Origin: Candidatus Altiarchaeales archaeon
GTDB taxonomy: Archaea > Altiarchaeota > Altiarchaeia > IMC4 > QMZM01
NCBI GenBank assembly: GCA_003663115.1
Contig: QMZJ01000001.1
Span: forward strand, 1 to 24,892
Length of the DNA stretch: 24,892 bases
Direction: 5' to 3'
Part shown: positions 13 to 9,067 of the stretch, piece by piece
Layout: the number at the start of each line of letters is the position of its first letter
Numbering within the stretch: the stretch's first letter is position 1
Notes under the pieces: generated by a model
Told to the model about the DNA's origin: nothing
Seen by the model: the letters and a program-made list of their open reading frames with translations, nothing else
Database searches by the model: none
Translations under genes and position numbers: made by a program

Positions 13-435
13 ATGACAGGAAAAGGGAGGAGATCTTCTATAGATAATATAGAAATCAACAAAGATGAAAATTATCTTATCGTTTCTGTTAACCCAAAGA
101 TCTATAACCTGGATATAGTTTACTATGCCGCCTACGTTCTGATGGACAGGGCATATGCCATACTCGGTGGGGACCCGGAGAGGGAGATCCTGGTGGAGTT
201 AAGACCAAAGGATAATACGGATTTAGAGACCCTGGGCAGGGAATTTAATAATGAATTGTTAAATTATGCGGTATACATGAAGCAATCCGCAAAAAATCAG
301 AGGCTGAGGGAAGCGATCCTGCAGAGGGTGTTGATGACCAATCTCGCTCCCGTTGAGGGCGAAGAAGCAAAGGATCCCGAGGGGATCGCCAGGCCCTGGA
401 GGGAAAAACATGGTAAAGGAAGGAAAAAAAGTTAG
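13..435 (+). CDS. hxsD: His-Xaa-Ser system protein HxsD
   Basis: VSVNPKIYNLDIVYYAAYVLMDRAY...EFNNELLNYA...LREAILQRVL matches the HxsD pattern. The C-tail DPEGIARPW resembles the 'DPxGIAxPW' end of CPR/DPANN-type HxsD. Lies upstream of HxsB. Confidence 0.85.
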   Translation: MTGKGRRSSIDNIEINKDENYLIVSVNPKIYNLDIVYYAAYVLMDRAYAILGGDPEREILVELRPKDNTDLETLGREFNNELLNYAVYMKQSAKNQRLREAILQRVLMTNLAPVEGEEAKDPEGIARPWREKHGKGRKKS

Positions 436-676
436 AATAGACGAGAAAAAAAATCGGGTAACGGTTACCTTTGACACACGGTTCTATGAACCAGAGAGCA
501 TAAGATTATCGGTTAATGACTTCAGGGATTGTTGTTCTGCTAAATTGAAATCAGAAGATGGTAAAATCACGGTGGTATTATCCCCAAAGAGTAAAGAGAT
601 CGACATAAACACTCTTGGCTATGAATTCTATAATTATGTTCTTGGTAGGATGAGATCAAGTGAATCTAGGTTTTAA
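410..676 (+). CDS. Second HxsD-like small protein (88 aa)
   Basis: ATG at 410 preceded by GGAGGGA, overlapping the hxsD 3' end (the ORF-track start at 353 is probably too early). TFDTRFYEPESI...VVLSPK...TLGYEFYNYVLG parallels HxsD (NPKIY...VELRPK...TLGREFNNELL). Confidence 0.75.
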   Translation: MVKEGKKVRIDEKKNRVTVTFDTRFYEPESIRLSVNDFRDCCSAKLKSEDGKITVVLSPKSKEIDINTLGYEFYNYVLGRMRSSESRF

Positions 677-682
677 TTTAAA

Positions 683-2104
683 ATGCCCATCACCTACTTT
701 GATGCAAATACATGTATAGATTACACGGAGAACCAATACTTCGTAAAGAGATTAGAACCGGATTCCTTTCTAATAACCACAGAACACGGAGCCTGGGTTG
801 TTCTGAATAAAAGGGAATATGACCTTCTGAGATTAAATCAATTGCATAAAGACCCAAATCTGTTTAATACGTTAGAGTATAAGGGGATAATAGTCACGGA
901 GAGGAACATAGGCCATATAGTGAACATATACAGGTTAAGAAAAGATTACCTCTTTAAAGGGGTGAGCCTCCATATAGTCGCCGTGACATCAAAATGCAAT
1001 CATAGATGTCCATATTGTTATACGGGATTACAAAAAAACGGGAAGGATATGGACGAAGATACGGCAAAGGCCGTTGTGGATTTCATATTCCAGAGCCCCA
1101 GTCCAGTGATAACAATAGAGATCTCCGGGGGGGAACCGTTAATGAATTTCCCAGTTGTTGAATTCATTATAGAATATTCCAAGAAACTAAATAAAAAATT
1201 CGGGAGGGATTTGATATATATACTGGTGACAAACCTCACCCCGATGGATGAAGACATCTTAAAGTATCTGATTAAGAACAATGTATCGATATCTACATCA
1301 TTAGATGGACCAAAAGAGGTACATGACAAAAATAGGAAATATCTGAATGGCAGGAGTAGTTATGAAAAAACGGTTTACTGGATCGATGTGATAAAAAAAC
1401 AATACAAATATCCTGCACTGGGTGCTTTACCTGTAGTTACCAGACATTCATTGCCCTATGGAAAAGAGATAGTTGATGAATACATCAAACACGATCTCAA
1501 TTTTTTAAGGCTCAAATACATTTCACCAACGGGAAATGCACAAAAACGCTGGGATAAACTTGGTTATACGCCTGAGGAATACCTGGTTCTATGGAAAAAG
1601 GTTCTGGATTATATCCTCAAACTAAATGGTAAGGGCTTAGAATTCAGTGAGGGATTAACGACACTCATGCTGAAGAAGATCCTCCTAACTGTAGATCCAC
1701 TCTATGTAGATCTGAATATGCCCTGTGGTGCCGGGATAGGTCAGATCACATATGATGAAAAGGGTAACATTTATACATGTGATGAAGCGAGACCGTATGA
1801 TATCTTTAAGCTGGGCGTTGCAGATAAAAACAGGTACAAGGAGATCATAGCATCGAGGACTGTTACGAGCATGGTCGACATATCATCCGGCTATCCACTG
1901 ATGTGCGATTTCTGTGTGTGGAAACCATATTGTGGCGTATGTGGTGTCATATCATACGCACAGCAGGGGAATATAATACCAAAGCTACCACTCGATTTCA
2001 GATGCGCTATTCATAGGGGGATGTTTGAGCATATATTCAGAAAATTGCTCTTCTCAAAGGAAAAGACGATATTGATGAAATGGGCTAATATATCCATGTT
2101 CTAG
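683..2104 (+). CDS. hxsB: His-Xaa-Ser system radical SAM/SPASM maturase HxsB
   Basis: SLHIVAVTSKCNHRCPYC (CxxxCxxC), SGGEP, VTNL, STSLDGPKEVHDKNR, SPASM PCGAGIGQITYDEKGNIYTCDEAR and CDFCVWKPYCGVC...C. The CGAGIGQ...TCDE signature is typical of HxsB. Confidence 0.9.
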   Translation: MPITYFDANTCIDYTENQYFVKRLEPDSFLITTEHGAWVVLNKREYDLLRLNQLHKDPNLFNTLEYKGIIVTERNIGHIVNIYRLRKDYLFKGVSLHIVAVTSKCNHRCPYCYTGLQKNGKDMDEDTAKAVVDFIFQSPSPVITIEISGGEPLMNFPVVEFIIEYSKKLNKKFGRDLIYILVTNLTPMDEDILKYLIKNNVSISTSLDGPKEVHDKNRKYLNGRSSYEKTVYWIDVIKKQYKYPALGALPVVTRHSLPYGKEIVDEYIKHDLNFLRLKYISPTGNAQKRWDKLGYTPEEYLVLWKKVLDYILKLNGKGLEFSEGLTTLMLKKILLTVDPLYVDLNMPCGAGIGQITYDEKGNIYTCDEARPYDIFKLGVADKNRYKEIIASRTVTSMVDISSGYPLMCDFCVWKPYCGVCGVISYAQQGNIIPKLPLDFRCAIHRGMFEHIFRKLLFSKEKTILMKWANISMF

Positions 2105-2118
2105 AGTTTCTAGAGTTA

Positions 2119-2138
2119 CACATATATTTTTATACCAG
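2119..2138 (+). promoter_or_regulatory. Putative archaeal TATA-box promoter of the precursor gene
   Basis: CACATATATTTTTATACCAG. TTTTTATA at 2127-2134 is centred about 26 nt upstream of ATG 2157, compatible with a leaderless transcript. A similar motif occurs at 12612-12627. Confidence 0.45.
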
Positions 2139-2156
2139 AAACCCAATAATTTATAT

Positions 2157-2507
2157 ATGAAAAAGAAACTTCCGAAGATAAAGAAGGAGGTATGCTGTTT
2201 CTTGTCCGATGAGAGCGGGAGAATATCAAAGAAATCATTGATTGCAATAAGCTCTGTGATTGGGGGTATAGCAATATCCGGGCTATTTTCTGGCGCCATA
2301 CGATCCGTTAAGGCAGATGGGCCCTATGGTATCCGGGCTACCTGTAATCACACCAATAATATTGGTGCAGATTATGATCCAACGAGTTGTACAATTAAAG
2401 TCACCCATAATCTTAGTTTAAATAAACATTACAATTCTGGTGTACATATGATATCAGGTTGTACACACACCAATAATTGTGATGCTACAGATCCATGCAA
2501 TCCTTGA
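2157..2507 (+). CDS. Putative RiPP precursor (HxsA-like position), His/Asn/Cys-rich core
   Basis: 116 aa directly after hxsB. Basic leader MKKKLPKIKKEV..FLSDESGRISKKSL, hydrophobic stretch, VKA|D cleavage-like site. The 63-aa core has 5 His and 5 Cys, with CxHTNN twice. Confidence 0.75.
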   Translation: MKKKLPKIKKEVCCFLSDESGRISKKSLIAISSVIGGIAISGLFSGAIRSVKADGPYGIRATCNHTNNIGADYDPTSCTIKVTHNLSLNKHYNSGVHMISGCTHTNNCDATDPCNP

Positions 2508-2574
2508 CAGTTTCCTTATCCATCGTTAATGTGTCCATCCCCTCTGCTAAATTTTGCACGTCCTTCAGGATAAA

Positions 2575-3393
2575 ATGGCTAAGATCACTTTCATTGTCAA
2601 ATACATCACGATTTTGTTTTTACTTTCTGCACTGCTGCCAATAATAACTACATCATATCCTGTTGTGCAAGAGAGAAAATATGAGGGATACTGTCTCACT
2701 GCTCTGTCATATATACTAAGTGAGGAACAATCTAAAAAACTCCCATTCAAGAATTTCGAGGAATTCATTAACAGTAGTATTGAGGTGGATACTTGGGACC
2801 CAGTGGGGTTTCTTAAATTCGCTCACGATCAAGGAGATGGCAGGGTGCATGCCCGAATAGGTAGAGTATATGAACATTTAGATGTCGCTTTCTATTACAC
2901 TATAGATAAAGGTGGCCAGAAGAGTGAGTTCTTCGGATGTGCTCTATTACCCTCCGATTCTCCAAAGGGACTAAGATGGTCAGATATTGTAGTAATTGAA
3001 AGTAGGCAAAAAATTGGAAGGATAATGGTAGACAACATTACATTTAATCGCGTGGATTATATAGTTAAATATTCAAACTCAAATGGCTCCTTTAATTGGG
3101 GTACAAATACAACAATTTTAATATTGTATGATAGTAACTCCTTGATTGCAAAGGGGTGGGATGCGTATATATCCTGGATAGGTACGAATCCTTATGGGGA
3201 GAGGGAATTGGTTAAGGATATCATAGAGGATAGAACTATACGAATAGAGACGCCAGCTAGGTTAGAAGAACGACAGGCGAGGCTGGATGAAATTATCCAC
3301 AGCAGCCAGATAATTATTGCTGTTTTAGTTGGGATAATGATCATGATTCTCTTAGTAGAAAGAAAAAGAGAGATCGACAAATGGAGGGTTTAA
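2575..3393 (+). CDS. Hypothetical surface protein with N-terminal signal/TM and C-terminal TM anchor
   Basis: ATG 2575; hydrophobic ITFIVKYITILFLLSALLPII; C-terminal IIIAVLVGIMIMILLV followed by basic ERKREIDKWRV. No family recognised. Confidence 0.75.
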   Translation: MAKITFIVKYITILFLLSALLPIITTSYPVVQERKYEGYCLTALSYILSEEQSKKLPFKNFEEFINSSIEVDTWDPVGFLKFAHDQGDGRVHARIGRVYEHLDVAFYYTIDKGGQKSEFFGCALLPSDSPKGLRWSDIVVIESRQKIGRIMVDNITFNRVDYIVKYSNSNGSFNWGTNTTILILYDSNSLIAKGWDAYISWIGTNPYGERELVKDIIEDRTIRIETPARLEERQARLDEIIHSSQIIIAVLVGIMIMILLVERKREIDKWRV

Positions 3394-3394
3394 T

Positions 3395-4489
3395 ATGGTA
3401 AGGAAAAGGACCATAATAGTATTTATCTTTCTGGGAATCGCATATATTGGGATAACATCGGTGGTGGACTTACCGAAGATTATAATGCCAGAGTTCAGGT
3501 TGGCTGAAAATACTACAGAGCCCGTTTTTTTGGGAGTTGACTCTAAGCAGATAAGCGATTATTATATTTATATGTACGATATATCAACGAAAAAGATTAC
3601 AACCTTGGTGTCGAATAAGGCGGGTTTGTTCAGCCCGTCAATAGATGACAATAGAGTGGCTTATATCAGCTATAGTGATAATGGCCCAGACATTCATGTA
3701 TTTGACATAGCCACTGGAGAGGTTAAACAGATAACCTCCGATCCCTATGAACAAGATCGTCCGCAGATCTACAAAAACAGGGTGGTATGGGAGGATGACA
3801 GAAGTAAATATGCAAAAGGAAGTAGAGTAACAAATATTTTGGATATATATATGTACGACCTAATCACTGATGAGGAAATACCGCTCATAACGACACAGCT
3901 TAAAGAAATGTTCCCAGAAATTTATGGCGATATAGTGGTCTGTGAGATATATAGTGATATAGCACATGAGAGGATCTATTTCTACAACATATCATCAAAA
4001 GAATTAAAAGAGATAACCTCAAGTTCACAGATGATGGGGTCACCTAAGATATATATGAACACCGTGGCATGGACTACACTGCTCGCGGGAGGAGACATCT
4101 TCATATACGATCTTGCAACGGGTAAAAAAATGCAGATTACCGATTCGGTAGAAAATGAATTTGATATAGATATATACAGAAACAGAATTGTCTACGCAAA
4201 AGGATTTTTTGACAGTGGTTTAGACATCTATATGTACGATATAGGTTCTGGTGTTGAGACGAGAATTACCAACACACCAAATAACCTGGAAAGGATGCCA
4301 AAGATCTACAAGGATATAATCGTCTACGTGAGACGGGAGGGGGAATACTCAAATATCTATTTATATGATCTAAAAACTGGAGAAGAGGTCAGGATAGAAT
4401 CTCCATCAAAATTCAATTACTTGCCAGATATCTGGGAGGATAAAATAGTGTGGATGGCGTTCGATATTTCTAAAAAGGGGTTTTGGTGA
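3395..4489 (+). CDS. Membrane-anchored beta-propeller protein (TolB-like / Methanosarcina surface-protein repeat type)
   Basis: N-terminal TM. Seven repeats of DIY(M/L)YD(L/I)xTG-E-xIT...P-I-xx-xVVW, the archaeal TIGR04275-type blade. Confidence 0.85.
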   Translation: MVRKRTIIVFIFLGIAYIGITSVVDLPKIIMPEFRLAENTTEPVFLGVDSKQISDYYIYMYDISTKKITTLVSNKAGLFSPSIDDNRVAYISYSDNGPDIHVFDIATGEVKQITSDPYEQDRPQIYKNRVVWEDDRSKYAKGSRVTNILDIYMYDLITDEEIPLITTQLKEMFPEIYGDIVVCEIYSDIAHERIYFYNISSKELKEITSSSQMMGSPKIYMNTVAWTTLLAGGDIFIYDLATGKKMQITDSVENEFDIDIYRNRIVYAKGFFDSGLDIYMYDIGSGVETRITNTPNNLERMPKIYKDIIVYVRREGEYSNIYLYDLKTGEEVRIESPSKFNYLPDIWEDKIVWMAFDISKKGFW

Positions 4490-5418
4490 GATGGTTTTTA
4501 TCCTCTACAGGTAAGTTACCCTATAGAATGAAAGCGAGAAAAGAATTCTTTGATGAATTAAAAAAGTTACAGTTGCATAATGATGTAATGAAGGAAATTA
4601 TTTTAGTACATGAAGGGGTTAAACCCTTAACGAGGATAATGCTTCCTCAGTCCCAACTCAAGTCATTTCAAGAGTTTTTAAGAGAGTATGGGTTCTATAT
4701 TGCAGAATCGGGTTATAAGGTCATATCGAAAAGAGACAGGGGTAAGGGGGGCTGGAGGAACAAAATCCTAAGGATAGTTAGTGCAGATTCTAGGGAGGGA
4801 GATCCTTTCTATTATATTGCCAAATCAGAGGAGATTGCTGAGGAAGCAAAAGCTGCAGAATTTCTAAGTTCAGATAAATCCGGTCAATTATTGGGTTACC
4901 CAGAATGTTGTCAGAAGTTCTTTAAAAAATACTTTACACTGGCAGACGAAAAACAGTGCGATTTCGTTCTTTATACGCTCTCAGAGACAAGGGAGGACTA
5001 TCCATATGATTTCTATAATAACAATGCCTCCCGATACTTTGGTTATTCTCTACTGAGCCATTTTCCGTGTTCTTTTAACTGCAAGGAATCATCGAGTCTG
5101 GCAAAGAGTTATTACGATGTGCTAAAAAAATACTCAAAGGAATGGGCGGACATGTTCCTTTATTGGCAGAGATCGGCGATCATCTACACCGAATACAGGG
5201 GCGTGTTCTTACTTAAGAATTTCGAATTGGATGGAAATGTTTTAAGATATGGCGATTCATATTGGCCGTATTCCACAATAATAAACGAGAATCTGCACAT
5301 ACTAAATAGGGCGGACAACATTCTGATCAATTCAAAGAACAATTTCTCGGCCCGTAAGGGAGAAAGGGTTTTAAAGAACTTTAAGGGCGAGAATGTGGGA
5401 TTGATGATTTTTGGATAA
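4486..5418 (+). CDS. DUF483-like Cys-motif protein
   Basis: GQLLGYPECCQKFF and HFPCSFNC motifs. GTG at 4486 overlaps the upstream TGA (GTGA coupling); alternative ATG at 4528. Confidence 0.65.
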   Translation: MRWFLSSTGKLPYRMKARKEFFDELKKLQLHNDVMKEIILVHEGVKPLTRIMLPQSQLKSFQEFLREYGFYIAESGYKVISKRDRGKGGWRNKILRIVSADSREGDPFYYIAKSEEIAEEAKAAEFLSSDKSGQLLGYPECCQKFFKKYFTLADEKQCDFVLYTLSETREDYPYDFYNNNASRYFGYSLLSHFPCSFNCKESSSLAKSYYDVLKKYSKEWADMFLYWQRSAIIYTEYRGVFLLKNFELDGNVLRYGDSYWPYSTIINENLHILNRADNILINSKNNFSARKGERVLKNFKGENVGLMIFG

Positions 5419-5421
5419 TTC

Positions 5422-5469
5422 AAAAGAAATAGTTTTTAAAGCCTTATCATATATATAATTATTGGAGGG
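5422..5469 (+). promoter_or_regulatory. Putative BRE/TATA promoter and Shine-Dalgarno for the ABC operon
   Basis: Purine run AAAAGAAA (5422-5429), TTTTTAAA (5433-5440), GGAGGG (5464-5469), then ATG 5477. Confidence 0.5.
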
Positions 5470-5476
5470 ACAAAGA

Positions 5477-6508
5477 ATGAGGATTAACAGATTACCGATT
5501 TTGGCTTTATTTCTAACGACCATAGCTCTGATGAACGGTTGTCTCGAATCCAAAGAAAAGGCTAATGAGGTAGTCATCTATGTCGCTCACGATCAGGATT
5601 ACTCGGAACCTATCTTAAAGGAATTTGAGGAAGAAACGGGCATTAAGGTAAGAGCGCTTTATGATACAGAAACCACGAAAACGGTTGGTTTGGTAAACAA
5701 ATTGATAGCTGAGAAAAATAGACCCCGGGCGGATGTATTCTGGAATAACGAGGTAAGTAGAACGATCGTGTTGAAAAAAGAGGGCATTCTCGAGCCTTAC
5801 TGCTCACCCAATGCTGCCGAGGTCCCGGATATATACAAGGATCCGAACTGCTACTGGACGGGCTTTGGGGCGAGGGCAAGGGTTATAATCTATAATACAG
5901 AGCTTGTAGATAAAGGGGATGCCCCGACATCTATAATGGATCTAAGGGATCCAAAATGGAGGGGGAAGATATGCGTGGCAAATCCATTGTTCGGATCGAC
6001 AGGATCTCACGTGGCCTCTCTCTTCGCATACTGGGGGGATGAAAAAGCCATGCAGTACCTCAATGATCTGAAGGAAAATGACATCGGGATCGTGGAGAGC
6101 AATGGCATGGTTAGAGACTTGGTCGTTAGTGGCGAATTTTACATAGGTCTAACAGACACGGATGATGCGAATGATGCCTTGGTTGAGAATAAGCCCATAG
6201 CGATGGTATTTCCGGATCAGGGGGATGGGGAGATGGGCACATTAGTGTTTCCAAATTCGGTAATGCTGATCAAGAACGGGCCAAACCCGGAGAATGGGAA
6301 GAAGCTTATTGACTATCTTTTAAGCAAGAGGGTGGAGAAAGCCCTGTCCTATTCTAAGGCAATGCAGATACCCCTAAAGCCGGGAGTAGAGCATCCGGAG
6401 AATGTTCCGGATATAGGTAAATTGAAAAACATCCCTGTAACACAGGAGGAGATCTATAATAAGTTAAAGGTATCCCAGAGATTTGTTCAGGAGCTTTTTA
6501 TCAGATAA
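5477..6508 (+). CDS. ABC transporter substrate-binding lipoprotein (Fe3+/thiamine, FbpA/AfuA-like class)
   Basis: Lipobox-like LMNGC; VVIYVAHDQDYSEPILKEFEEETGIKV, PRADVFW, WTGFGARARVIIYNTELV, DLRDPKWRGKICVANP, NGPNPENGKKLIDYLLS. Confidence 0.88.
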   Translation: MRINRLPILALFLTTIALMNGCLESKEKANEVVIYVAHDQDYSEPILKEFEEETGIKVRALYDTETTKTVGLVNKLIAEKNRPRADVFWNNEVSRTIVLKKEGILEPYCSPNAAEVPDIYKDPNCYWTGFGARARVIIYNTELVDKGDAPTSIMDLRDPKWRGKICVANPLFGSTGSHVASLFAYWGDEKAMQYLNDLKENDIGIVESNGMVRDLVVSGEFYIGLTDTDDANDALVENKPIAMVFPDQGDGEMGTLVFPNSVMLIKNGPNPENGKKLIDYLLSKRVEKALSYSKAMQIPLKPGVEHPENVPDIGKLKNIPVTQEEIYNKLKVSQRFVQELFIR

Positions 6509-8786: not shown

Positions 8787-9067
8787 GATGAGAAAAAACT
8801 TGGCGATAGAGCTACGGAAGAGATAAAAACGATCTCTTTTTATACAGAGAACAGGGGGTGACAGATGTCGCCTTCGGCGGAGGCGAACCCGCCATCAGGA
8901 GTGATATCTTTGAATTAGTTTCCCATGCAAGACATCTTGGATATGACCTCGTCTGTGATGGCCCATGGAAGGAATATACAGATATATTTGGCTGGGATGA
9001 ATTTAAGCCTGTCCCCGGAAAGAAGGTAAAAACTGTGGGGGTGATTATCAGAACACAAATTTATTAA
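8787..9067 (+). pseudogene. Remnant of an HxsC-like radical SAM gene (5'-truncated, frameshifted, internally deleted)
   Basis: The frame from 8787 reads DEKKLGDRATEEI. Adding one A to the A5 run at 8825-8829 joins it to KNDLFLYREQGVTDVAFGGGEPAIRSDIFELVSHARHLGYD, which runs straight into the family C-terminus LVCDGPWKEYTDIFGWDEFKPV. No CxxxCxxC and no TIM-barrel core. Confidence 0.75.

What the first reader, a model, noticed from the sequence alone, without database searches (positions are those of the whole stretch)
2157..2507. Hxs-type RiPP precursor with no His-Xaa-Ser: HxN / HxxS / CxHTNN core
Seen: the core DGPYGIRATCNHTNNIGADYDPTSCTIKVTHNLSLNKHYNSGVHMISGCTHTNNCDATDPCNP has five His and none is H-x-S. 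Three are H-x-N (HTN, HYN, HTN), three are H-x-x-S (HNLS, HYNS, HMIS), and CxHTNN occurs twice with an identical 12-bp codon block (2349-2360, 2466-2477). It also has five Cys. Established: Hxs loci are named for HxS-repeat precursors and belong with radical-SAM peptide-crosslinking systems (three-residue cyclophane-type chemistry). Inference: an archaeal variant forming His-Asn crosslinks and/or Cys thioethers or disulfides, possibly a new metal-binding or surface RiPP class.
Basis: partly seen in the sequence, partly recalled or inferred. Interest (0 to 1): 0.7.

Follow-up and report, generated by a model that had tools for sequence, protein, structure and literature searches.

The report
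Archaeal Hxs-type peptide lacking His-x-Ser
A small exported histidine-rich peptide gene of an uncultured Altiarchaeota archaeon is a real but divergent substrate of a radical-SAM "His-Xaa-Ser" maturation cassette: Asn replaces Ser beside the conserved histidines and the second enzyme (HxsC) has decayed, so it is a useful natural variant, not a new class.

Summary
ORF 2157-2507 (+) encodes the 116-aa protein as quoted: five core His, no H-x-S, three H-x-N, three H-x-x-S, CxHTNN twice on an identical 12-mer, and five core Cys.

It is a genuine HxsA-class precursor:
- It directly follows HxsD, an HxsD-like gene and HxsB (387 bits, cut-off 370).
- Its leader matches the HxsA3 model.
- Among 61 Altiarchaeota genomes it occurs only in the five that carry HxsB.

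It is not a new class. It belongs to a large, unannotated, mostly archaeal family (at least 427 clusters at 50% identity) with one shared leader. In that family H-x-N is the best-conserved first core motif, and N is the second commonest residue after S at His+2. About 18% of members lack H-x-S.

New findings here:
- A prepilin-type A24 peptidase belongs to the cassette.
- HxsC is only a fossil in this window, and H-x-S-poor precursors tend to go with HxsC-less loci.
- A 4-kb tract (HxsB catalytic part, precursor, three downstream genes) has been swapped between near-identical genomes.

The chemistry (a His-Asn cross-link) and the function remain inferred. The scan has noted other Hxs variants on other DNA, but not this sequence.

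The parts
13..435 (+). HxsD (140 aa)
   Evidence: TIGR03976 scores 44.8 bits, just under the cut-off of 50. Orthologues carry Pfam PF27806 HxsD. The gene is 98% identical in L033.
353..676 (+). Second, HxsD-like small protein (likely start near 410)
   Evidence: NF038315 HxsD_rel scores 56.9 bits, above the cut-off of 41. It holds this position in all related loci.
683..2104 (+). HxsB radical SAM/SPASM maturase (473 aa); residues 1-76 form an N-terminal domain outside the swapped tract
   Evidence: TIGR03978 scores 387.2 bits, above the cut-off of 370. The CxxxCxxC and SPASM cysteines are invariant in alignment A3. The closest solved structure is CteB, 5wgg, E = 2e-45.
2127..2134 (+). TATA-like box TTTTTATA about 26 nt before the ATG; suggests the precursor has its own promoter and a leaderless transcript (inference)
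   Evidence: Read directly from the sequence. Not tested.
2157..2507 (+). Precursor/effector gene (116 aa), HxsA class
   Evidence: Homologues follow HxsB in G002, G004 and G031 and in metagenomic loci.
2157..2315 (+). Leader, residues 1-53: conserved charged part (P6, K9, K10, F15, L16, E19, G21, I23, K25), hydrophobic segment 28-50, then V-K-A
   Evidence: The HxsA3 profile matches residues 5-35. In the 196-sequence alignment G21 is present in 196/196, E19 in 195/196 and P6 in 193/196, and Ala at -1 before the core in 132/169. Hydropathy peaks over residues 28-48.
2316..2504 (+). Core, residues 54-116, carrying the five family-conserved His positions
   Evidence: H65 column: His in 176/186. 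Its +2 column: N 142, S 23, Q 10. H84 column: 189 His, no other residue. H91, H97 and H104 align with the H-x-S repeat histidines of relatives, where +2 is S more often than N.
2343..2368 (+). First C-x-H-T-N-N block (family-wide motif H-x-N-x-I-x3-Y)
2460..2485 (+). Second C-x-H-T-N-N block (clade-specific G-C-x-H-x-N-x-C), an 81% DNA copy of the first
   Evidence: The block is kept in P0002, P0003 and P0089.
2554..3393 (+). 279-aa protein with hydrophobic segments at both ends (read from its sequence), no known family; travels with the precursor
   Evidence: No Pfam or NCBIfam hit. It is syntenic in L006, L020 and L033 and lies inside the swapped tract.
3395..4489 (+). Beta-propeller protein (364 aa); travels with the precursor
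   Evidence: TIGR04275 repeats, 144 bits. Syntenic and inside the swapped tract.
4483..5418 (+). DUF483-like protein (311 aa); the distal recombination breakpoint lies inside it
   Evidence: PF04467 scores 22.3 bits, below the cut-off of 25. Identity to L033 returns to 90-99% from about 4944.
900..4940 (.). About 4-kb allelic replacement tract relative to the near-identical relative L033
   Evidence: DNA identity is 96-99% over 1-900, 27-85% over about 900-4940, and 90-99% over 4944-5540. HxsB residues 1-76 match at 75/76, then identity falls (71% over the whole protein). The precursors are 37% identical.
8858..9067 (+). Fossil of an HxsC4-like second radical SAM gene: GGE motif joined to the extreme C-terminus, no CxxxCxxC
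   Evidence: NF038332 positions 312-335 of 335 match 8942-9013. No intact HxsC was found in the 84%-complete genome.

Best explanation
ORF 2157-2507 is the substrate/effector peptide (HxsA class) of a compact archaeal Hxs cassette. The gene order is A24 prepilin-type peptidase, HxsD, an HxsD-like gene, HxsB, then the precursor.

Shown:
- The gene, its leader homology to HxsA3, the cassette and its conservation.
- Co-occurrence of the precursor with HxsB.
- All five of its His fall on family-conserved columns.
- H-x-N is the family's first core motif and a regular alternative to H-x-S.

Inferred mechanism:
1. The conserved N-terminal part of the leader (about residues 4-26) is held by the HxsB N-terminal domain and/or the two HxsD proteins.
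2. The HxsB radical SAM/SPASM core modifies the cytoplasmic precursor at His-centred sites. The prime candidates are the near-invariant H65-x-N67 and its duplicate H104-x-N106. The likely product is a side-chain cross-link of the His-to-C-beta type known from His triceptides.
3. The membrane A24 peptidase clips the leader after the invariant Gly21, as in class III signal peptides. The hydrophobic segment 28-50 drives export. A V-K-A site (A53) could then release a 63-aa mature peptide.
4. Outside the membrane, the five clade-conserved Cys form disulfides or bind metal together with the His residues.

This lineage lost HxsC (a fossil remains at 8858-9067) and, with it, the H-x-S tandem tail that HxsC-type enzymes probably act on. 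It is therefore an HxsB-only minimal version.

The most likely role is a diversifying envelope-level defence or competition factor. This rests on analogy with bacterial HXS, on the patchy distribution and on the swapped allele. It is the weakest step.
For: Locus and family membership:
- HxsB is over its curated cut-off, the HxsD-like gene is over its cut-off, and residues 5-35 of the leader match HxsA3.
- Homologous precursors sit directly after HxsB orthologues in G002, G004 and G031, and in Micrarchaeia and other metagenomic loci.
- Among 61 Altiarchaeota genomes, the precursor profile hits exactly the five genomes that have HxsB over cut-off.
- The family holds 427 representatives at E <= 1e-3.

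Conserved residues:
- In the leader, G21, E19, P6 and K25 are conserved.
- In the core, H65 and H84 are near-invariant, and the position two after H65 is N in 142 sequences against S in 23.
- Across all core His, the +2 residue is S 749 times and N 320 times.

A24 peptidase:
- A24 genes lie next to the cassette in every related locus with upstream DNA and in 13 of 18 window-like metagenomic loci.
- Both catalytic Asp are invariant.
- The genome's own copy sits at the end of contig C6, and L033 bridges that contig end to base 1 of the window.
- Prepilin peptidases cut after G/A/S, before the hydrophobic domain (PMC4371748).

Chemistry precedent: His C2-to-C-beta cross-links on H-x-X motifs are known for HaaB, YhhB and HtkB (PMC11499958).

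HxsC and H-x-S:
- The HxsC4-like fossil is at 8858-9067.
- Loci with an HxsC-like gene have 3-17 H-x-S per precursor (n = 26). Loci without one have 0-3 (n = 4).

Allele swap: the catalytic part of HxsB and the precursor were exchanged together.
Against: - No mass-spectrometry or expression data exist for any member of this family.
- The window protein has Ser, not a charged residue, at -2 of the proposed A24 site. The hydrophobic segment starts 6-7 residues after Gly21 rather than directly after it, so the site is not canonical.
- The HxsA3 and HxsA4 models are not reached (20.6 bits against 65).
- HxsB's nearest characterised relatives make Cys thioethers, not His cross-links.
- The mature part is acidic (3 K/R against 5 D/E). 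The DNA-trapping model of bacterial HxsA therefore does not transfer.
- The link between H-x-S and HxsC rests on few, related loci. G004 is a counter-example: five H-x-S and no nearby HxsC.
Confidence: 0.65

Rival explanations
1. In this clade the chemistry has shifted to cysteine. HxsB makes Cys-to-carbon thioether bridges (sacti- or ranthipeptide-like) using the five conserved core Cys, and the His/Asn residues only help recognition.
For: - After HxsB itself, the best family hits are thioether enzymes: PapB at 140 bits, then CcpM, QhpD and the SCIFF maturase.
- The nearest solved structure is CteB.
- The five Cys are kept in P0001, P0002, P0003 and P0089.
- The HxsB catalytic domain diverged together with the core in the swapped tract.
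Against: - The enzyme passes the HxsB equivalog cut-off and is orthologous to HxsBs whose precursors often have no core Cys. The family median is 2 and the lower quartile is 0.
- An odd number of Cys fits disulfides or metal binding equally well.
Confidence: 0.12
2. It is an ordinary exported or membrane-anchored His/Cys-rich (metal-binding or pilin-like) protein. It is processed by the A24 peptidase but is not modified by HxsB.
For: - It has a signal-peptide-like hydrophobic segment and an A-x-A-like site.
- An A24 peptidase is its neighbour.
- Two family members lie away from HxsB: P0006 is 293 kb from HxsB in G026, and P0024 lies beside other radical SAM genes.
Against: - In most contexts examined the gene directly follows HxsB.
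- It co-occurs perfectly with HxsB in 61 genomes.
- Its long conserved N-terminal leader is shared with bacterial HxsA3/A4-type precursors.
- It was exchanged together with the HxsB catalytic domain.
Confidence: 0.1
3. The system is decaying. With HxsC reduced to a fossil, the precursor is a drifting relic that has lost its H-x-S repeats and its function.
For: - The HxsC4-like remnant lies at 8858-9067.
- The protein has no H-x-S.
- The other genome of the same genus (G001) lacks the whole system.
Against: - The ORF and all cassette genes are intact.
- The leader invariants and all five conserved His positions are kept.
- The same HxS-poor, HxsC-less layout persists in four diverged relatives: L020, L018, L033 and P0089.
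- Most window-like loci (10 of 12) have no HxsC next to HxsB.
Confidence: 0.05

Closest known systems
HxsA3 / HxsA4 precursors of variant His-Xaa-Ser systems (NCBIfam NF038309, NF038313; uncharacterised)
   Same: - Same leader architecture: P-x-I-K-K, then F-L-x-E-E-x-G-x-I, then a hydrophobic segment.
- Same neighbours: two HxsD-type genes, HxsB and an A24 peptidase.
   Different: - The window protein scores 20.6 bits against 65, and only on the leader.
- It has no H-x-S repeats.
- The archaeal family adds an H-x-N-x-[IL]-x3-Y ... A-T-H block that the gut-metagenome type lacks.
- HxsC is not adjacent.
Canonical HXS antiphage system HxsD-HxsB-HxsC-HxsA of Pseudomonadota (Li et al., Nat Commun 2026, PMC13128918)
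   Same: - It has HxsB and HxsD homologues.
- Its effector is small, exported, N-terminally processed and His-rich, and is matured in the cytoplasm.
   Different: - The window locus has no HxsC, no peptidoglycan-binding domain and no basic H-x-S repeats; its core is acidic.
- It adds an A24 peptidase and a second HxsD.
- It is archaeal, whereas the paper found 99.7% of systems in Pseudomonadota.
- Antiviral activity has not been tested.
His-type triceptides (HaaB on HAA, YhhB on HNR, HtkB on HTK; PMC11499958)
   Same: A His at position 1 of a three-residue motif, cross-linked by a radical SAM/SPASM enzyme. H-x-N fits the pattern of an aromatic residue (Omega1) followed by two further residues (X2, X3).
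   Different: HxsB is not in those enzyme families (52-76 bits against cut-offs of 310-450). No cross-link has been shown for any Hxs system.
Class III (type IV prepilin-like) signal peptides cut by archaeal PibD/FlaK/EppA
   Same: - An invariant Gly precedes a hydrophobic segment.
- A dedicated A24 aspartyl peptidase with both catalytic Asp lies next door.
   Different: - The region before the cut site is long (21 aa).
- Six or seven polar residues separate the Gly from the hydrophobic segment.
- An A-x-A-like site follows the hydrophobic segment.
- No pilus assembly genes belong to the cassette.
SCIFF/CteB and other SPASM thioether maturases
   Same: Closest solved fold relative of HxsB by sequence (5wgg). 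The substrates are Cys-containing small peptides.
   Different: The precursors have a different leader, and family-wide cores often lack Cys.

Membership tests
HxsA (TIGR03979, canonical His-Xaa-Ser repeat protein) | Profile score of at least 121.65 bits | tested here: not met
   No hit at E <= 0.01.
HxsA (TIGR03979, canonical His-Xaa-Ser repeat protein) | Tandem His-Xaa-Ser repeats | tested here: not met
   Zero H-x-S in the protein.
HxsA3 (NF038309) | Profile score of at least 65 bits over the 81-position model | tested here: not met
   20.6 bits, covering only profile positions 2-32, the leader. Relatives score 22-46 bits.
HxsA4 (NF038313) | Profile score of at least 55 bits | tested here: not met
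   No hit for the window protein. H-x-S-rich relatives reach 23-49 bits.
Hxs system (any type) | HxsB radical SAM/SPASM maturase (TIGR03978, at least 370 bits) next to the precursor | tested here: met
   387.2 bits. The gene ends 52 nt before the precursor start.
Hxs system (any type) | HxsD-type small protein | tested here: met
   NF038315 scores 56.9 against a cut-off of 41. The first copy scores 44.8 against 50 on TIGR03976. PF27806 hits the orthologues.
Hxs system (canonical four-gene HXS) | Paired second radical SAM enzyme HxsC (TIGR03977, at least 267.9 bits) adjacent to HxsB | tested here: not met
   The best hit in the genome is 30.4 bits and is HxsB itself. Only a fossil matching the HxsC4 tail remains, at 8942-9013. 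The genome is 84% complete.
Hxs system (canonical four-gene HXS) | Antiphage activity by blocking DNA entry; basic, peptidoglycan-anchored effector | not testable with these tools
   Sequence only: no peptidoglycan-binding domain and an acidic core.
Triceptide (three-residue cyclophane) RiPPs | Maturase belonging to a cyclophane synthase family (YhhB, GrrM/OscB, XyeB, FxsB) | tested here: not met
   52-76 bits against cut-offs of 310-450. ChlB scores only E = 6.5e-15, against CteB at 2e-45.
Triceptide (three-residue cyclophane) RiPPs | C-C cross-link from residue 1 (aromatic or His) to C-beta of residue 3 | not testable with these tools
   Needs MS/NMR. The H-x-N pattern is present and conserved.
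Class III signal peptide (prepilin-peptidase substrate) | G/A/S at -1 and a charged residue at -2, directly before the hydrophobic domain | tested here: inconclusive
   Gly21 is present in 196/196. Position -2 is charged in 183/196 but is Ser in the window protein. The hydrophobic segment begins 6-7 residues later.
Class III signal peptide (prepilin-peptidase substrate) | A cognate A24 peptidase with two catalytic Asp | tested here: met
   PF01478 hits. D21 and D88 (in the GDAKL motif) are invariant in 8 cassette-linked copies. The genome's own copy lies on contig C6, which joins the window start.

The most novel reading that the evidence does not exclude
Archaea with small genomes (Altiarchaeota, DPANN) use an HxsB-only branch of the Hxs system. 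A radical SAM enzyme forges a so far unknown His-x-Asn side-chain cross-link on a peptide. A dedicated prepilin-type peptidase then releases the peptide into the envelope. There it acts as a rapidly diversifying antiviral or competition factor.

In this reading the window is a natural 'HxsC knockout'. It assigns the H-x-N block to HxsB and the H-x-S repeats to HxsC.
Probability: 0.2. Interest if true: 0.75.

Novelty: new variant of a known kind. Interest (0 to 1): 0.48.

Why it matters
The chemistry of Hxs systems is unresolved. The one experimental study could not say which enzyme does what, nor what the +8 Da change is.

This locus, and the unannotated, mostly archaeal family behind it, offer a stripped-down version:
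- one radical SAM enzyme;
- two HxsD proteins;
- one peptidase;
- one short precursor whose only family-conserved core elements are H-x-N-x-I-x3-Y and A/V-T-H.

That makes the HxsB reaction directly testable in co-expression. It also suggests a division of labour, with HxsB acting on the first motif and HxsC on the H-x-S repeats. It extends a recently recognised defence-type system to archaea that have an outer membrane; the double membrane of Altiarchaeota is from my own knowledge and was not tested here.

The swapped 4-kb allele shows that the enzyme core and the peptide evolve as a unit.

Tried and rejected
- Complex prediction of HxsB (alignment A3) with the precursor (alignment A4) gave no verdict (score 0.00). 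It is not evidence either way.
- The AlphaFold2 model of HxsD (pLDDT 79.6; two hairpins, a short helix and a long helix) found no PDB match at E <= 1e-3. The weak top rows are RNA polymerase Rpb11/L-like subunits and type III secretion chaperones. I assign no fold, and it is not an evident PqqD-type recognition domain.
- PADLOC has no Hxs model. Only generic viperin-like radical SAM hits came back.
- The ESM Atlas feature search returned only unnamed archaeal and Omnitrophota clusters below 0.9.
- The 415-aa radical SAM gene next to the closest relative's locus (L020) has no counterpart in this genome and does not match the fossil.
- P0092, a 2131-aa protein with 12 profile matches, has no leader motif. 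I set it aside as probably a match to its composition only.
- I considered N-glycosylation sequons (NHT at 64, NLS at 85) as an alternative meaning of the Asn residues. I did not pursue this, because the family motif H-x-N-x-[IL] is not a sequon.
- The paper search found no paper in the held library that treats archaeal Hxs loci.

Full report
**1. The observation**

- His lie at 65, 84, 91, 97 and 104. None is H-x-S. Three are H-x-N and three are H-x-x-S.
- The core has five Cys. C-x-H-T-N-N occurs twice.
- The 12-mer at 2349-2360 recurs exactly at 2466-2477. It is the centre of a 26-nt copy pair at 81% identity, 39 codons apart.

Shuffling the core composition gives p = 0.017 for three H-x-N, p = 0.0009 for three H-x-x-S and p = 0.003 for two H-x-N-N. 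Zero H-x-S is expected for this composition (p = 0.72). The absence is unusual only when compared with relatives.

**2. The locus**

Upstream, on the same strand, lie three genes:
- HxsD (13-435; TIGR03976 scores 44.8 against a cut-off of 50).
- An HxsD-like gene (353-676; NF038315 scores 56.9 against 41).
- HxsB (683-2104; TIGR03978 scores 387.2 against 370).

Residues 5-35 of the precursor match positions 2-32 of the HxsA3 model (20.6 bits, far below the cut-off of 65). Pfam finds nothing in it.

The genome is a 1.19-Mb, 84%-complete assembly, and the window is contig C1 from its first base. Related contigs are titled Candidatus Altiarchaeota.

**3. Relatives of the precursor**

Homologues follow HxsB orthologues directly in three other Altiarchaeota genera and in a JGI metagenome contig (67% identity).

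A profile of six sequences finds 88 proteins in the 90%-identity collection, all named 'hypothetical' or unnamed. They come from Altiarchaeota, Woesearchaeota, Micrarchaeia, Aenigmarchaeota and unclassified sources. In the exhaustive 50%-identity library it finds 427 representatives at E <= 1e-3.

In an alignment of 196 members:
- The leader is highly conserved: P6 in 193/196, F/Y15 in all, E19 in 195/196, G21 in 196/196 and K25 in 189/196.
- A hydrophobic stretch follows, then Ala at -1 before the core in 132/169.
- The core opens with H65 (176/186). Two residues on comes N in 142, S in 23 and Q in 10. Then come [ILVM] and Tyr73.
- Next is H84 (189 His, no other residue in that column).
- Last come the histidines of the H-x-S tandem repeats. 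H91, H97 and H104 of the window protein align with these.

Over all core histidines of the family, the residue at +2 is S 749 times and N 320 times. H-x-N is therefore not an invention of this gene. It is the family's first core motif and the regular alternative to H-x-S.

Of 210 members, 37 have no H-x-S, 172 have at least one H-x-N, and 122 have three or more H-x-S. Members rich in H-x-S still fall below the HxsA3 and HxsA4 cut-offs. The family is an uncurated sister group of those models.

**4. Linkage to HxsB**

Among the 61 Altiarchaeota genomes held, HxsB passes its cut-off in five. The precursor profile hits exactly those five and no other. These genomes are kin, so this is not a statistical test.

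The window genome has one copy of the precursor.

Two family members lie away from HxsB:
- The ISALHDHCDPGH subgroup in G026 lies 293 kb from its HxsB.
- One Woesearchaeota gene lies next to other radical SAM genes.

**5. A fifth component**

An A24 (prepilin-type) aspartyl peptidase gene lies next to HxsD in every related locus that has upstream DNA. It is also present in 13 of 18 window-like metagenomic loci. Both catalytic Asp are invariant.

The window genome's own copy (80% identical to that of L020) sits at the very end of contig C6. The metagenomic contig L033 bridges that contig end to base 1 of the window.

More distant HxsB loci, many of them from gut metagenomes, have the order HxsD, HxsD', A24, HxsC, HxsB, then a gap, then the precursor. 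Their leader has the same design, and their H-x-S repeats begin directly after an A-x-A-like site.

Prepilin peptidases cut after G/A/S, usually with a charged residue at -2, ahead of the hydrophobic domain (PMC4371748). The invariant Gly21 fits this. However, the window protein has Ser at -2, and the hydrophobic stretch starts 6-7 residues later.

I therefore propose, as inference, a two-step leader:
- The recognition part is removed at Gly21 by the A24 enzyme.
- The export part may be removed after V-K-A53.

**6. HxsC**

No HxsC is found in the genome. A 69-aa frame at 8858-9067 carries a GGE motif joined to the last 24 positions of the HxsC4 model. This agrees with an earlier first-reader note on this window.

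- In window-like loci an HxsC-like gene is adjacent to HxsB in 2 of 12, and present somewhere in the locus in 7 of 12.
- In the distant type it is adjacent in 30 of 36.
- In loci with at least 2.5 kb on both sides, precursors have 3-17 H-x-S when an HxsC-like gene is present (n = 26) and 0-3 when it is not (n = 4).

This suggests that H-x-S repeats are the HxsC substrate, as modelled for E. coli (PMC13128918), and that the H-x-N block is the HxsB substrate. The sample is small and its members are related. G004 is a counter-example.

**7. An exchanged allele**

L033 comes from a near-identical organism. Its DNA identity to the window runs as follows:
- 96-99% over 1-900.
- It collapses inside HxsB after residue 76.
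- It stays at 27-85% through the rest of HxsB, the precursor (37% aa identity), the 279-aa membrane protein, the beta-propeller and half of the DUF483-like gene.
- It returns to 90-99% at 4944-5540.

Searches give the gene-by-gene comparison. The HxsB catalytic domain, the precursor and three downstream genes therefore move as one unit. The peptidase, both HxsD genes and the HxsB N-terminal domain stay fixed.

This fits an enzyme core matched to its peptide core. It also fits diversifying selection of the kind seen in defence or competition loci.

**8. Comparison with what is known**

The canonical HXS system is an antiphage system of Pseudomonadota (PMC13128918). Its exported, basic, peptidoglycan-anchored HxsA carries an undefined +8 Da change on SHRSS.

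Here there is no HxsC and no peptidoglycan-binding domain. The core is acidic, with 3 K/R against 5 D/E. Family cores are net negative in 151 of 196. The DNA-trap mechanism should therefore not be carried over.

Three-residue cyclophane chemistry has not been shown for Hxs:
- HxsB's best non-Hxs family hits are thioether enzymes.
- Its nearest solved relative is CteB. ChlB is much weaker.

His C2-to-C-beta cross-links on H-x-X motifs do exist (HaaB, YhhB, HtkB; PMC11499958). A His-Asn link is therefore chemically reasonable, but it is a hypothesis.

The Cys residues are conserved only within this clade, so they cannot carry the family's common reaction.

**9. Verdict**

- The reading 'Hxs-type archaeal precursor with functionally important H-x-N' is supported.
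- The readings 'new class' and 'established cyclophane chemistry' are not supported.

It is a new variant of a known kind. Its value is as a minimal, HxsC-less system with a clear experimental path.

The scan has recorded many other Hxs variants on other DNA, some with a prepilin-peptidase-like gene or with two HxsD genes. It has not recorded this sequence.

Noticed in passing
window 8858-9067: Remnant of an HxsC4-like radical SAM gene. A GGE motif is fused to the last 24 model positions, there is no CxxxCxxC, and it sits between the ABC ATPase gene and the giant surface protein gene.
   Followed up: partly
window about 900-4940 versus L033 3720-7750: Sharp-edged 4-kb allelic replacement between near-identical genomes. 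The breakpoints lie inside HxsB (after residue 76) and inside the DUF483-like gene. The flanks are 96-99% identical.
   Followed up: yes
G000 contig C6 17343-18371 (L031) and window base 1: The assembly break falls in the A24-HxsD intergenic region. L033 shows that the end of contig C6 and the start of the window are contiguous.
   Followed up: yes
L040 4471-5142, L045 1855-2697, L055 4443-5504: These family precursors carry a C-terminal extension that starts with C-F-x-A-G-T. It looks like a Hint/intein-type self-cleaving domain fused after the His-rich core.
   Followed up: no
L035 25-552: A leader-bearing protein whose core repeats C-x-V-H-[TS]-N-C-[TS]-H-[SA]-S. This mixes H-T-N-C and H-x-S-C units and resembles the window's G-C-T-H-T-N-N-C. 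The locus has an HxsC-like gene next to HxsB.
   Followed up: no
P0080, P0083, P0085, P0087, P0088: These proteins have the same leader, but their cores are made almost only of Gly and Cys (or Gly and Ala), with no His. The leader family therefore serves more than one kind of core.
   Followed up: no
L022 6355-6915 and L023 6406-6987: In Micrarchaeia loci the precursor is followed by a small membrane protein with an H-E-x-G-H motif (a faint Peptidase_M50 hit). It may be a further processing protease. It is unrelated to the 279-aa protein of the window.
   Followed up: partly
L023 7634-12330 and L029 6907-12288: Runs of four or five further radical SAM genes (HxsC4-like, 110-195 bits, below cut-off) lie just downstream of the compact cassette in DPANN-type loci.
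   Followed up: partly
P0006, P0019, P0025, P0034 and similar; L009/L030: A subgroup has the core ISALHDHCDPGH ... H-[KQN]-N-x-[VI]-x-L-N-Y-G at the very C-terminus. In G026 it is encoded 293 kb from HxsB.
   Followed up: partly
window 2275-2285 and 2330-2340: Exact 11-nt direct repeat TATCCGGGCTA inside the precursor gene, 55 nt apart and out of frame. Probably chance.
   Followed up: no
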